Source: a virus
IMG/VR virus record: IMGVR_UViG_3300031420_000498
Reading direction: 5' to 3' (one strand)
DNA length: 26,960 nucleotides
In this document: piece after piece, positions 1-26,960 of the stretch
Layout: each line of letters opens with the position of its first letter
How positions within the stretch are numbered: the first letter of the stretch is position 1
Notes under the pieces: generated by a model
Database searches by the model: none
The model's input: only the letters and a program-made list of their open reading frames with translations
What the model was told of the DNA's origin: nothing
Translations under genes and position numbers: made by a program

Positions 1-705
1 GGTATCTACTCAGTCAATGTCGCTAACTTCCTCGGTATCTTCGATCACGGCAACAGCATTCCCGCTACGAAGCTTCAGCTCGAACAGCTCCTGGCGGGAA
101 AGCCAGCAGGAGAGTTCGAAGCCCTCCCTCAGATCACTTCCGATGGTACTCCAGCCCGCGACTGGACAGAAAGCTACGATCTTCTTGCAGTGTCAGGACA
201 GGCCGACTCCTACGAAAAACCAAAGCTTTCAATCTTATTCAAGGGCGCTGAGGAGGAGCTGTACAGGGAGCTCGAAGCTAGAGATCTAGACTCCTCTAGG
301 TTTAGAGTCAGGGACATCTCGATGCAGGAAGTAGGTTTCCACGGGTTTGCCACCTGGATTCATGCAAAGCTTGCTGATGATACCTTCATCCGTGGCACCA
401 CCGAAGAGGTTCTTCTCTGGGGCACGCAGTCGCTCGCCAAGCCCACCATCCTTGAGGTTGCCGAGAGCATCGGCCTGAAGTTCGAGCGCAACGAGGATGG
501 GGGCTTCGTCCTCGACTCGGAGGGTAAGATCTCCACGGCCTGCCCCTTCCACGAGGACACGGACAGTTTCATCCTTCTGCCTCAGCAGGGTGAGCACGGA
601 TGCTTCATGTGCTACAGCTGTGGCCGCAACGGTAGTCCCGAAAGGCTCAGCGTAGAATGGAAGAGCCGGCCGCTGGACGCGATGGCTGAATACGATCTCA
701 GCTGA
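1..705 (+). CDS. 5'-truncated protein with C-terminal DnaG-type CHC2 zinc-binding domain
   Basis: Frame 1 is open from base 1 (GIYSVNVANF...) through the 190..705 ORF; C-terminal ILEVAESIGL...CPFHEDTDSF...FMCYSCGRNG matches the CPFH...CxxC primase zinc-finger pattern. Confidence 0.75.
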   Translation, partial: GIYSVNVANFLGIFDHGNSIPATKLQLEQLLAGKPAGEFEALPQITSDGTPARDWTESYDLLAVSGQADSYEKPKLSILFKGAEEELYRELEARDLDSSRFRVRDISMQEVGFHGFATWIHAKLADDTFIRGTTEEVLLWGTQSLAKPTILEVAESIGLKFERNEDGGFVLDSEGKISTACPFHEDTDSFILLPQQGEHGCFMCYSCGRNGSPERLSVEWKSRPLDAMAEYDLS

Positions 706-727
706 TCTAGATCCCAGGGCACTGCTT

Positions 728-776
728 CATGGGGTCTCCTTCCTCCGTTAGAGATCTGGAGGAAGGAGACCCCATG
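728..776 (+). promoter_or_regulatory. Perfect 19-bp hairpin occluding the RBS and ATG of the downstream gene
   Basis: catggggtctccttcctcc (728-746) is the exact reverse complement of ggaggaaggagaccccatg (758-776); 11-nt loop. Confidence 0.85.
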
Positions 777-1859
777 GCAAAGTTCCACATCAACCGCGAA
801 GGCAACCCCGGGGCCTGTCGGGCCAAGCCGGGAAACTGCCCCTACGGCGAAGAAAGCGACCACTACACCAGCAAGGAAGATGCCCGCAGGGTCTACGAGG
901 ATCAGCAGGAGCTCCTTGCCCGGATCGGCATAGGCGGCAACCGTGAGCTGAGTGCAGCCACCGAAACCGCCCTCACCGCAGACCTCAAGCCCCTGAATCA
1001 GCAACCTGCCTGGATCTGGGCACACTCATCCCGGCTTCAGCAGGAGCTCTTCGGAGTGACTCCTCAGGTCATCGCAACCGTCGACAGTCCCCTGGGGACC
1101 CTCGCCGTTGTCTGGGAGGAAGCCACCGTCGAGAACAACGATCTCGTCTCCGAAGTCGAGGACGGCTACCTGATCTCCCGGATCTCCTACCGGACCATGG
1201 CCACAGATGAGCTCGTGGGCTACCTCAAGACCACCTCCATGTCCGAGGACTCCGTGAGCAAGAGCTTCGGCGATGATGAGTGGCGGGGGCTGCGCTACTC
1301 CGGAAGCCGGGACTCCTTCTACGCCATGGATCGGAAGGACTTCGAAGGGAAACGAAGCTACGATCCTAGCCAGAGCGCCGATGACTTCAAGCGTACCCGG
1401 ATGGAGCCTCCAGCACTTGACAGCAGGGAGAAGCTCGCCGAGTTCGTGGGCAAAGCCCAGAGTCACTTCCGCTCCTACAGCGACACTACCGCTCACTTCA
1501 TGGATGAGCCAGAGCTTCGCAGCGAGCTCAGTCGGCTTCAGGAGCTCGCCAATGAGAACCTTGATCGCTACCGGGAGGGCTTTAGGGAGCCCTTCATCGA
1601 CTACATCAAGCTCGACCGGGAGGAGCTTCGAGGTCAGGGGCTCGGCGCTTCCCTCTATGTGTTCATGGCCCGGAAGCAGGCAGAGCGTGGGCTACCTCTA
1701 AGAGCATCTGGCCTACAAACTCCCGAGGCTGAGAAGAGCTGGAACCGGATGGCTGCTGACAGGCGGTTCCCGATCCGAGTGGGCAATCACCTCCACCAGA
1801 GTCGAGGTCAGCGAACCGTGAGCGCGAGCTACTTCCTCGACTTCCGTGAGCAGGACTGA
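774..1859 (+). CDS. Protein with N-terminal H-x-C-x6-CP-x-H motif and C-terminal GNAT acetyltransferase-like domain
   Basis: RBS GGAAGGAG then ATG 774 (MAKFHINREGNPGACRAKPGNCPYGEESDHY); C-terminal IDYIKL...LRGQGLGASLY...ASGLQTPEAEKSW has the acetyl-CoA-binding motif A (RxxGxG). Confidence 0.7.
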   Translation: MAKFHINREGNPGACRAKPGNCPYGEESDHYTSKEDARRVYEDQQELLARIGIGGNRELSAATETALTADLKPLNQQPAWIWAHSSRLQQELFGVTPQVIATVDSPLGTLAVVWEEATVENNDLVSEVEDGYLISRISYRTMATDELVGYLKTTSMSEDSVSKSFGDDEWRGLRYSGSRDSFYAMDRKDFEGKRSYDPSQSADDFKRTRMEPPALDSREKLAEFVGKAQSHFRSYSDTTAHFMDEPELRSELSRLQELANENLDRYREGFREPFIDYIKLDREELRGQGLGASLYVFMARKQAERGLPLRASGLQTPEAEKSWNRMAADRRFPIRVGNHLHQSRGQRTVSASYFLDFREQD

Positions 1860-1977
1860 TCGAAGAGCTGTTGTCAGCTGCCTCCCTGGGGTCCTCGAGC
1901 TCCAGGATCGATCAACCCGACGGAGTCGAAGCCTACGATGCCTAGGGCGCAAGCTACGGGCTTAGAACAGCCACCCG

Positions 1978-2006
1978 TTGTGTGGTGAGGGAATCTGTGA
2001 TAGCAT
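1978..2006 (+). promoter_or_regulatory. sigmaA-type promoter
   Basis: TTGTGT-N17-TAGCAT with extended -10 TG. Confidence 0.55.
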
Positions 2007-2012
2007 TTTAGT

Positions 2013-2160
2013 GAGCTCGCGGTTCGGGCTCCCGGTTTCAGGCTCCCTGCGCGGGTCTGGATGGATCCGGATAGCCCATTGGATGGGCGGCCGACTCTCA
2101 CACTCAGCATTTCCTCCTTCCCAGGAGGGCTTAGAAGCTAGTGGAGTGGCCAGCGCAGGT
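2013..2160 (+). ncRNA. Candidate structured leader RNA (multi-branch)
   Basis: Nested stems: 2013-2031 hairpin, cctgcgc 2046-52/gcgcagg 2153-59, gcccat/atgggc 2074-88, ggcc.actc 2089-97/gagtggcc 2144-51, cctcct/aggagg 2113-28. Confidence 0.5.
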
Positions 2161-2186
2161 CGTCGTTCCACGGAAGTAGCTCAGCC

Positions 2187-25329: not shown

Positions 25330-25382
25330 GGCCCCGCACCACACACCACCACCCTCGATCTTCTCTCCAAAAGGAGTTCCCC

Positions 25383-25685
25383 ATGGACATCAGCAACCTC
25401 TACGCCGAGATCGCCGCCGACGGAACCACGGACGCAGCCACAACTGCCCAGCAGGGCACAGGGCTGCTCTGGATGCCCATCGCGCTCGCCGAGGTCAAGG
25501 AGGGCATGACCCTGCGCCTCGAGGGCGAGCGCTACACGGGTGCCACCGTCGTGAGCACCGTGCGGATGGAGATCTTCAGTGAGACCGACGAGGCCCTCGT
25601 GGTGGACGCCATCTACCCCAGCGCTCGAGTCCGCGATGTCTTCAGCAACTTCCGTGAGGTGAGCTACCTGCGCCTCGCTCACTGA
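25383..25685 (+). CDS. Small acidic hypothetical protein
   Basis: AAAGGAG RBS. Confidence 0.8.
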   Translation: MDISNLYAEIAADGTTDAATTAQQGTGLLWMPIALAEVKEGMTLRLEGERYTGATVVSTVRMEIFSETDEALVVDAIYPSARVRDVFSNFREVSYLRLAH

Positions 25686-25713
25686 GCTAAGCCCGCAGCA
25701 TCCACTCTCGGCA

Positions 25714-25751
25714 CAATGACCCCAGGGACAGATTAGTCTCTGGGGTCATTG
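25714..25751 (+). terminator. Stem-loop, probable terminator
   Basis: caatgaccccagggac / gtctctggggtcattg, 16 bp with one G-U. Confidence 0.6.
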
Positions 25752-25776
25752 CACCGTTAGGTAGAGGAGTAGCACC

Positions 25777-25995
25777 GTGGGTAGACGCCGTGGGAGCATG
25801 GACATCGACATCAGCGGTGGAGCCCTGGAGGCTCTAGAGGAGCTCAGTCGCCGTTCCGGTCGACCCATCACCGAGGAGCTTCGGTTCGCCATCTCGGATC
25901 GGAAGTTCTTCTCAGGGAAGGTCGAGGAGGGCTACGCCATCAAGCTCATCGACCCTCAAGATCCCCACCAGGTGACCGTGGTCAACTACAGCTGA
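25777..25995 (+). CDS. Ribbon-helix-helix (CopG-like) protein
   Basis: MDIDIS...LEELSRRSGRPITEELRFAI strand-helix-helix pattern; GAGGAG RBS. Confidence 0.6.
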   Translation: MGRRRGSMDIDISGGALEALEELSRRSGRPITEELRFAISDRKFFSGKVEEGYAIKLIDPQDPHQVTVVNYS

Positions 25996-26061
25996 TCGCA
26001 GCCTGTCCCCTCTGTCAGTTCGAGCTAGCGCAAGCGCCTTCGGGGCGAGTAGGAATAGACC

Positions 26062-26960
26062 GTGAATACATCCCCTGGAAGTTCTCTGAGATTTCCGCAA
26101 TCCCTCAGGGAAGCCTGGCCTGCGCTGACCGGCCTATCGGCCGTCTTCCTCTTCGAGATGCTCGACAACTCAGTGCTCAATGTGGCGCTCCCCACCATCG
26201 GCCGGGAGCTCCAGGCTTCCACAACAGGGCTACAGTGGGTCACAGGAGCCTATTCCGTCGCCTTCGGTGCCCTGATGCTCCTCTTCGGTGCGGTGGCAGA
26301 TCGCTTCGGCCGGCGGCGAGTGATGCTCGTCGGGCTGGTTCTCTTAGCCTTCGCTAGCCTCGCAACGCTGCTGGTCGGGACTACTGAAGAGCTCATCCTC
26401 GTTCGGATCCTCATGGGTGTGGCGGCCGCCATGACCACTCCCGGCTCCATGGCCCTGGCCTTCCGGCTCTTCGACATCGATGATCTTCGAGTTCGAGCAA
26501 TCACTGTGATCTCAACAGCGGGTCTGGTAGGTCTCGCAATCGGCCCTGTGGTAGGAGGCTTCGTGCTTCAGATCGCGCCCTGGCAGACCCTGCTCCTCAT
26601 CAATGTCCCCATCGCAGCCGTGGCTTTCTTCGCTATCCGCTCGGGGATCGCCGAGGATGATCCAGCCCACCATAGGCAAGATCCGATCGATGTGCTCGGA
26701 GCGATTCTCGGGGCTGCTGCTATTGCCCTCAGTCTCGCAACACCAACTGCCTTCGTGGATGTGGGTTCCAGTTCCTGGATCCCCTGGACAACGGGAGCTG
26801 CGGCGTTGGTAGCGGTATTAGCCTTTGCCCTCCGGGAGCGTTCAGCTCCCCACCCGCTCCTTGAGCTGTCCCTGGTGGCTCGACCCCTGGTGGCTAGCGG
26901 CCTCGCCTTCAAGGCAGCCTCAGGGCTGGCAGTTGCCGGATTGAGCTACCTCGTTACGCT
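26062..26960 (+). CDS. MFS efflux transporter, DHA2 (EmrB/QacA) type, 3'-truncated (not in ORF track)
   Basis: GTG 26062; EMLDNSVLNVALPTI (motif D1), GAVADRFGRRR (motif A), GLAIGPVVGG (motif C), LINVPI, IDVLG. Confidence 0.92.
   Translation, partial: MNTSPGSSLRFPQSLREAWPALTGLSAVFLFEMLDNSVLNVALPTIGRELQASTTGLQWVTGAYSVAFGALMLLFGAVADRFGRRRVMLVGLVLLAFASLATLLVGTTEELILVRILMGVAAAMTTPGSMALAFRLFDIDDLRVRAITVISTAGLVGLAIGPVVGGFVLQIAPWQTLLLINVPIAAVAFFAIRSGIAEDDPAHHRQDPIDVLGAILGAAAIALSLATPTAFVDVGSSSWIPWTTGAAALVAVLAFALRERSAPHPLLELSLVARPLVASGLAFKAASGLAVAGLSYLVT

What the first reader, a model, noticed from the sequence alone, without database searches (positions are those of the whole stretch)
1..26960. ACGT appears to be absent from the entire window
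Reading every ACG by eye I found no ACGT; roughly 90 would be expected at about 62% GC (my estimate). Asp/Asn/His/Tyr codons are normally C-ending here but switch to T before Val (AATGT 16-20, TATGT 1656-60, CATGT 20851-55, GATGT 25635-39, AATGT 26179-83), even in the host-like MFS gene. Other palindromes (GATC, TCGA, CCGG, GGCC) are abundant. Possible causes (inference): avoidance of an ACGT-specific restriction system, self-protection from an element-encoded ACGT nuclease, or long-term 5mC deamination of ACGT to ATGT/ACAT.
Basis: partly seen in the sequence, partly recalled or inferred. Interest (0 to 1): 0.75.

Follow-up and report, generated by a model that had tools for sequence, protein, structure and literature searches.

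The report
Site-purged giant element, unpartnered ACGT cutter
A very large uncultured mobile DNA element from leaf surfaces has no copy of the four-letter word ACGT and carries a gene that most likely encodes an ACGT-cutting enzyme, without the protective methylase gene that sits beside it in relatives, so it probably stays safe by having no target rather than by marking it.

Summary
Confirmed: 0 ACGT in the window (36 expected by Markov model, 97 by base composition), 0 in 75 kb of the contig (112 expected) and 0 in about 170 kb of related elements (about 260). The purge reaches protein sequence: D/N/H/Y-Val dipeptides are halved. About 45.5 kb beyond the window lies a conserved winged-helix + HNH-like nuclease gene (P0018). 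Its relatives pair with one family of beta-class amino-methyltransferases in giant viruses (84 of 86 loci), bacteria and a gut giant element. Their DNA is depleted of ACGT specifically (giant viruses 0.17 versus 0.86 in controls). Here no such methylase lies beside it or in the 75 kb read. Best reading (about 0.6): a solitary ACGT restriction enzyme with self-protection by site absence, PacI-like but with a 4-base target. Not shown: activity, specificity, absence of a methylase on the unread part, host, phage or plasmid. 5mC decay fits poorly. The scan flagged this gene earlier in this genome, linked the same R-M pair to ACGT in giant viruses, and saw analogous cases (GCWGC, GTCTC) on other DNA.

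The parts
1..26960 (.). ACGT-free stretch; the first 26,960 nt of a contig of a large ORFan-rich extrachromosomal element (JGI Ga0308170_10000120 reversed, 149 kb). The candidate cause lies OUTSIDE the window on the same contig: P0018 = L024:17807-18556:-, i.e. 72,456-73,205 if window numbering is continued; a 249-aa winged-helix + HNH-like nuclease whose neighbours are not methyltransferases
   Evidence: phyllosphere holders (the two best may be the source sample)
774..1859 (+). 361-aa marker gene (P0001, N-terminal H-C-C-H module) used to find related elements; contains the TAT-GTG Tyr-Val switch at 1656-1661
20131..20979 (+). Endonuclease IV-like TIM barrel gene with the CAT-GTG His-Val switch at 20851
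26158..26960 (+). 5' part of an MFS transporter gene (450 aa, runs past the window end); host-like cargo, also ACGT-free, AAT-GTG at 26179

Best explanation
The element encodes its own ACGT-specific type II-like restriction endonuclease (P0018: winged-helix domain plus a zinc-less HNH/beta-beta-alpha-Me domain) without the methyltransferase that accompanies the family elsewhere. Any ACGT arising on the element would be cut, so selection keeps the count at zero, in genes, between genes and in acquired cargo, even at the price of amino-acid changes. The enzyme can then attack DNA that still carries unmodified ACGT: competing phages or plasmids, or the host chromosome in a lytic or abortive phase. 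Shown here: the purge, its spread over a clade, the gene, its R-M ancestry, the family's statistical link to ACGT, and no methylase in 75 kb. Inferred: catalytic activity, ACGT specificity of this very protein, absence of a methylase on the unread rest of the element, and the biological target.
For: Zero of about 260 expected in 170 kb non-redundant DNA of related elements. D/N/H/Y-Val 86 vs 171 expected here and 88 vs 185 in other purged elements, while E/Q/K/G-Val is normal; in ACGT-keeping relatives 71 vs 95. P0018 has 19 homologues at 51-78% identity with invariant G159-H160, D162-P163, N171, Q175-P176, N180; two have longest contigs of 178,330 and 673,773 nt, the lengths of the ACGT-free contigs behind L004/L011 and L015 (matched by length only). 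Fold: winged helix at residues 25-120 (Z 5-6); the catalytic part gives weak but consistent HNH matches (PacI 33 columns rmsd 1.1 A, Cas9 HNH, I-PpoI; 4L0K Z 2.8); bacterial relatives hit Pfam HNH below cut-off. Relatives pair with one beta-class N6/N4 methylase family (40-46% identical across hosts) in 84 of 86 giant-virus loci, Thermus plasmids, a 638-kb gut element and about 47 of 80 bacterial loci. Giant-virus loci with the nuclease: ACGT median 0.17 (26/42 under 0.25) vs 0.86 (10/118) in control loci, p about 2e-15, no other palindrome comparable. Bacterial loci with methylase + nuclease 0.42 vs methylase alone 0.79, p 2.7e-4, the only palindrome surviving a 16-fold correction. The helix motif D88-I90-Q91-N94-K95-G100 is invariant in both the element and giant-virus clades. 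A methylase profile finds nothing in the 75 kb. The methylase-bearing gut element keeps ACGT (55/86).
Against: No enzyme assay and no characterised member of the family identified. Only 75 kb of a contig of 149-193 kb, probably of an element of several hundred kb, was searched for a methylase; unlinked R-M genes are known (PMC3488263). The giant-virus clade is a long branch from P0018, and loci are not phylogenetically independent, so the p-values overstate. Some giant-virus loci with the nuclease keep ACGT (e.g. L069 19/28, L097 23/28), and one giant virus with 0/27 shows no nuclease in a 79%-complete record, so purging can have other causes. Absence of the nuclease from ACGT-keeping relatives (L006, L009) was not directly testable. 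If the host is an actinobacterium its chromosome carries ACGT, so a free cutter needs an unexplained safeguard or a lytic lifestyle, and no virion gene was seen.
Confidence: 0.6

Rival explanations
1. P0018 is an ACGT cutter but is covered by a methylase encoded elsewhere (unread part of the element, or the host chromosome). The purge is ordinary, unusually complete self-site avoidance of an R-M carrier.
For: The family nearly always travels with its methylase. Some methylase-bearing carriers also reach zero over 20 kb (L074 0/26, L078 0/39, L347 0/47). Separated R-M systems are documented (PMC3488263). It would explain how the host chromosome survives.
Against: In relatives the methylase is directly adjacent; here the adjacent genes are unrelated. 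Most methylase-bearing carriers show only partial loss (pooled 0.27 in giant viruses, 0.54 in bacteria, 0.64 in the gut element), not 0 of 260 with amino-acid costs.
Confidence: 0.22
2. The pressure comes from outside: the hosts or co-resident elements carry an ACGT restriction or other ACGT-triggered defence, and P0018 is incidental or has another target.
For: Restriction-site avoidance is standard in phages and plasmids (established knowledge). Sister elements are low in other words (L009 GTAC 5/39; L006 GATC 47/78). A purged giant virus without the gene exists.
Against: Only one word is purged, absolutely, across lineages whose marker proteins are 51-85% identical. The same elements carry a gene from the family tied to ACGT loss in viruses and bacteria, which this reading leaves as coincidence.
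Confidence: 0.13
3. Mutational decay: long-term 5mC methylation of ACGT and deamination to ATGT/ACAT, as described for M.Hpy99XI in Helicobacter pylori.
For: ATGT (112 vs 71) and ACAT (179 vs 152) exceed the synonymous shuffle in genes; the process is documented for this motif (PMC10423294).
Against: H. pylori keeps 53-295 motifs per Mb; here zero. Markov-corrected ATGT/ACAT is only 1.07, and the ATGT excess is forced by T-ending codons before Val under selection too. D/N/H/Y-Ile/Met is not in excess (169 vs 180; 177 vs 171) although 85-97 Val pairs are missing. No C5 methylase motif in 75 kb; the family's partner is an amino-methylase.
Confidence: 0.04

Closest known systems
PacI of Pseudomonas alcaligenes (solitary HNH restriction enzyme; Shen et al. 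2010 as cited in PMC3488263; PDB 3LDY)
   Same: HNH-type nuclease without a cognate methylase, carrier protected by absence of sites; weak structural match of the catalytic core (33 columns, rmsd 1.1 A, E 4.8).
   Different: PacI recognises 8 bases in a cellular genome (own knowledge); here the inferred target is a 4-base word expected every few hundred bases, purged from a mobile element, with amino-acid costs. No sequence homology shown.
Type IIP R-M systems with HNH nucleases (KpnI, NlaIII, SphI, NspI families in PMC2441816; type II enzyme PDB 4L0K)
   Same: Relatives are nuclease + amino-methylase gene pairs in Thermus, Helicobacter, Brachyspira and other bacteria, and in giant viruses.
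   Different: P0018 lacks the CxxC zinc ligands of the bacterial relatives and the neighbouring methylase; no curated family model matches it.
ACGT enzymes MaeII and Hpy99XI/HpyCH4IV; TaiI, TscI, Tsp49I of Thermus
   Same: Same inferred target word; relatives of P0018 occur as R-M pairs on Thermus plasmids where ACGT is the lowest palindrome (9/19, 6/14).
   Different: MaeII and Hpy99XI use m5C methylases (PMC10113651, PMC10423294), unlike this family.
Restriction-site avoidance in phages and plasmids; host-DNA nucleases of lytic viruses (T4 EndoII/EndoIV, chlorovirus R-M) (own knowledge)
   Same: Loss of a palindrome by codon choice; a nuclease that spares the carrier's own DNA.
   Different: There the pressure is usually a host enzyme, or self-protection is by base modification; here the proposed pressure is the element's own enzyme and protection is by sequence.

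Membership tests
Type II restriction endonuclease (HNH class) | beta-beta-alpha-Me catalytic motif with conserved His and Asn | tested here: met
   Invariant G159-H160, N171, N180 on a predicted strand-loop-strand-helix; weak Foldseek matches to PacI, Cas9 HNH, I-PpoI; bacterial relatives hit PF01844 below cut-off. Each line is weak, they agree.
Type II restriction endonuclease (HNH class) | Homologues encoded beside a DNA methyltransferase | tested here: met
   84 of 86 giant-virus loci, Thermus plasmids, gut element, about 47 of 80 bacterial loci
Type II restriction endonuclease (HNH class) | Sequence-specific double-strand cleavage at a fixed position | not testable with these tools
   Needs a digest; ACGT is inferred from depletion statistics
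Complete type II R-M system | Cognate methyltransferase linked to the nuclease on this element | tested here: not met
   Neighbours are not methylases; no profile or motif hit in 74,970 nt
Solitary restriction enzyme protected by site absence (PacI-like) | Carrier DNA lacks the target | tested here: met
   0 of 112 in 75 kb; 0 of about 260 across the clade, given the inferred target
Solitary restriction enzyme protected by site absence (PacI-like) | No cognate methylase anywhere in element or host | tested here: inconclusive
   Only part of the element read; whole records not searchable; one search lists only 120 of 3547 methylases
MaeII / Hpy99XI ACGT systems | m5C methyltransferase partner | tested here: not met
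   Partner family has the DPPY...FxGxG order of a beta-class amino-methylase
TaiI / TscI / Tsp49I (Thermus, ACGT) | Sequence homology to the characterised enzymes | not testable with these tools
   No sequence or paper held
Tailed phage (jumbo phage) | Capsid, terminase, portal or tail genes | tested here: inconclusive
   None among the top 25 families shown for 101 proteins; no relatives in IMG/VR; most of the element is unread
Giant plasmid | Replication/partition genes, maintenance in a host, no virion | tested here: inconclusive
   DnaB (best plasmid matches mostly Streptomyces/Mycobacterium, 34-40%), ParA-like, FtsK-like present; no conjugation genes seen; host unknown

The most novel reading that the evidence does not exclude
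A clade of several-hundred-kb actinobacterial elements wields a methylase-free 4-base restriction enzyme as a weapon or defence and is immune because it has rewritten all its DNA, proteins and incoming cargo included, to lack ACGT; sister lineages without the enzyme keep the word. This would be sequence-based self/non-self recognition at 4-base resolution and would define a new zinc-less winged-helix-HNH restriction family shared with giant viruses.
Probability: 0.45. Interest if true: 0.85.

Novelty: new variant of a known kind. Interest (0 to 1): 0.7.

Why it matters
A 4-base cutter without a methylase is normally lethal to its carrier; the recognised exception by site absence, PacI, has a rare 8-base target. 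If P0018 cuts ACGT, this clade shows that a replicon of hundreds of kilobases can replace methylation by total target loss and pay for it in protein sequence. It gives a one-experiment test (digest with one 249-aa protein), a predicted specificity for an unannotated nuclease family spread over bacteria, giant viruses and giant elements, and a compositional marker for binning these elements. It also sharpens the open question of what the elements are: a free cutter implies a lytic phase, a triggered defence, or a host methylase.

Tried and rejected
No whole genome held; metagenome records not searchable by handles, so the contig was walked by look-ups to 75 kb. Marker and nuclease found no close relatives in phage, plasmid, IMG/VR or GTDB collections. 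Pfam, NCBIfam and PDB sequence searches gave no family for P0018; whole-protein fold searches showed only the winged helix; the Atlas gave HNH clusters at 0.85-0.87, a lead only. The methylase homologue list showed none on contigs of the elements' lengths but covers only the top 120 of 3547, so it is uninformative. No RNA holder listed. Laying four runs showed over 1,000 differences but listed only 40, so new ACGT could not be counted. No sigma-70 consensus promoter upstream of P0018 by a simple scan. Literature searches found no description of these elements or of this family. Rejected: composition or CpG artefact (ACG and CGT trimers common, CpG o/e 0.87); a longer motif as the target (all ACGT-containing words are absent, neighbouring 4-mers are normal); general palindrome avoidance (others 0.5-1.8); MaeII/Hpy99XI identity (m5C partners).
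Full report
1. Observation. The window has no ACGT. Base composition predicts 97, the Markov model 36; GC is 59.5%. No other 4-mer is below 0.47. No genome was held, but the window coincides with the start of a reversed 149-kb JGI contig and a 94-kb ENA contig. Five look-ups extended it, with identical overlaps, to 74,970 nt: 0 ACGT against 112. In 110 genes all 86 D/N/H/Y codons before Val end in T, the Thr codon ACG never precedes a T, and the Arg codon CGT never follows an A; a synonymous shuffle expects 77 +/- 6; intergenic DNA has 0 against 16. 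D/N/H/Y-Val dipeptides are halved (86 vs 171) while E/Q/K/G-Val are normal (270 vs 294).

2. What the DNA is. The best holders are phyllosphere and plant metagenomes (the top two may be the source). Genes are mostly ORFans, with DnaB, ParA-like, FtsK-like, RNase H, endonuclease IV, a histidyl-tRNA-synthetase-like gene common in jumbo phages, a GmrSD N-terminal domain and an MFS transporter. No virion or conjugation family was seen. DnaB is closest mostly to actinobacterial plasmid helicases at 34-40%, so the host phylum is an inference. Relatives lie on contigs up to 673,773 nt. ACGT is zero in L004, L005, L008, L010-L017 (marker identity 51-85%) but normal in L006/L007 (21/22) and near normal in L009 (20/28), which is low in GTAC instead. 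Non-redundant total: 0 of about 260 in 170 kb. All 151 sampled Actinomycetota genomes contain GACGTC, most by the hundreds or thousands (four are unpublished, G139, G020, G067, G107, and the statement holds on the other 147). The purge is therefore a trait of an element clade, not of the presumed host phylum; the true host was not tested.

3. The candidate cause. An earlier unchecked note (e1-5355417) pointed to an orphan HNH-like gene 45.5 kb past the window. I fetched it: P0018, 249 aa, minus strand, L024:17807-18556, or 72,456-73,205 in continued window numbering. It has 19 homologues at 51-78%, two with longest contigs equal in length to the ACGT-free contigs of 178,330 and 673,773 nt, and about 190 more distant clusters. 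The model shows a winged helix at residues 25-120 and a C-terminal part with invariant GH, N, QP, N residues whose weak fold matches are HNH enzymes: PacI, Cas9, I-PpoI, 4L0K. The tree has three supported groups, bacterial zinc-binding enzymes, giant-virus enzymes and the element clade, plus unresolved metagenomic members. In Thermus plasmids, about 47 of 80 bacterial loci, 84 of 86 giant-virus loci and a 638-kb gut element the nuclease sits beside one family of beta-class amino-methylases, 40-46% identical across these hosts. That makes it a type II R-M family by gene context.

4. Which word. Giant-virus loci with the nuclease have median ACGT odds 0.17, with 26 of 42 under 0.25; control loci fetched by two core genes have 0.86, 10 of 118; no other palindrome behaves so (CTAG shifts mildly, without purging). 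Among bacterial loci chosen by the methylase, those with the nuclease have 0.42 against 0.79 without, the only palindrome surviving correction. The putative recognition-helix residues are invariant between element and giant-virus clades. These are correlations among related sequences, so the p-values overstate; exceptions exist in both directions (L069, L097 keep ACGT; G003 is purged without a detectable gene).

5. Mechanism. On this contig the nuclease has no methylase beside it or within the 75 kb read. Methylase-bearing carriers mostly show partial loss (0.27, 0.54, 0.64); this clade shows total loss with amino-acid costs. The simplest account is that the enzyme is unpartnered and every new ACGT is removed by selection (inference, 0.6). 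The halving of D/N/H/Y-Val follows, because most such codons end in C and cannot acquire a following Val. What it cuts in life is unknown: competing DNA, or the host chromosome in a lytic or abortive phase; if the element is a stable plasmid, the host needs a methylase or the gene must be tightly off. Rivals: a methylase on the unread part or in the host (0.22); an outside restriction pressure with P0018 incidental (0.13); 5mC decay as in H. pylori (PMC10423294), which leaves 53-295 motifs per Mb and should raise Ile/Met pairs, which it does not here (0.04).

6. Comparison with known systems. It works like PacI, a solitary HNH enzyme whose host lacks the site (PMC3488263), but with an inferred 4-base target on a mobile element. 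It is not of the MaeII/Hpy99XI type, which use m5C methylases (PMC10113651). Kinship with the Thermus ACGT enzymes is an untested lead. Within this scan, the giant-virus pair and its ACGT link were reported before (e1-5479688; seen by me only after my own test), and unpartnered enzymes with purged targets were reported for GCWGC and GTCTC on other DNA; these are AI notes, not independent support.

7. Verdict. Observation confirmed and extended; first reading partly supported; new variant of a known kind; interest 0.7. One digest and four full contigs would settle it.

Noticed in passing
L009 (Logan SRR25400197, 123-kb contig) and L006/L007: Sister elements keep ACGT but are low in other words: GTAC 5/39 in L009, GATC 47/78 in L006. 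L009 shares the NAD-synthase/marker gene order with ACGT-free L008.
   Followed up: partly
L015:10001-11596 and L014:3352-4976: The marker gene match spans about 1.6 kb instead of 1.08 kb in these two loci, so it is interrupted by roughly 500 nt (insertion, intron or split).
   Followed up: no
P0044 and P0047: Two nuclease homologues begin with a His/Cys N-terminal extension resembling the H-C-C-H module that starts window gene 774-1859.
   Followed up: no
L188 (G003, IMGVR_UViG_3300032321_001463, 361 kb), also L185, L162: Giant-virus loci purged of ACGT (0/27, 0/26, 1/23) with no match to this nuclease family in the held, incomplete records.
   Followed up: partly
L025:8306-10094 and L119:8360-10140: Unnamed nuclease + methylase pairs on Thermus plasmids pTthSNM1-7d and pTCCB09; ACGT is the lowest palindrome there; candidates for the genes of the Thermus ACGT enzymes.
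   Followed up: partly
L113-L118: A gut-metagenome element (contig of 638 kb; cluster members up to 850 kb, 55% GC) with IF3, DnaB, PspA and the complete nuclease + methylase pair; ACGT only mildly low (55/86), GATC and GGCC lower.
   Followed up: partly
window 1-26960 and extension: Milder depletion of CTAG (0.53), GTAC (0.64) and CGCG (0.66; 156 vs 299 in the codon shuffle).
   Followed up: no
window 3654-4427, 10598-11356, 18320-18808, 22650-23615: Histidyl-tRNA-synthetase-like, polynucleotide-kinase-like AAA_33, 2H-phosphoesterase-like and HAD (RNA-repair type) genes: a possible RNA repair or counter-defence kit typical of large phages.
   Followed up: no
G032, G039, G044, G047, G062, G077, G092, G106, G120, G134, G147, G160: About a dozen small (1.3-2.2 Mb) Actinomycetota genomes have only 13-42 GACGTC against 103-838 for the control pattern.
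   Followed up: no
L279, L282, L291, L346, L347: Bacterial-bin loci carrying the methylase (most also the nuclease) have two or three 4-base palindromes at zero in 9-21 kb.
   Followed up: no
window 4868 (run X5): One low-depth contig leaves the alignment here and continues with foreign sequence that contains ACGT; origin unknown.
   Followed up: no
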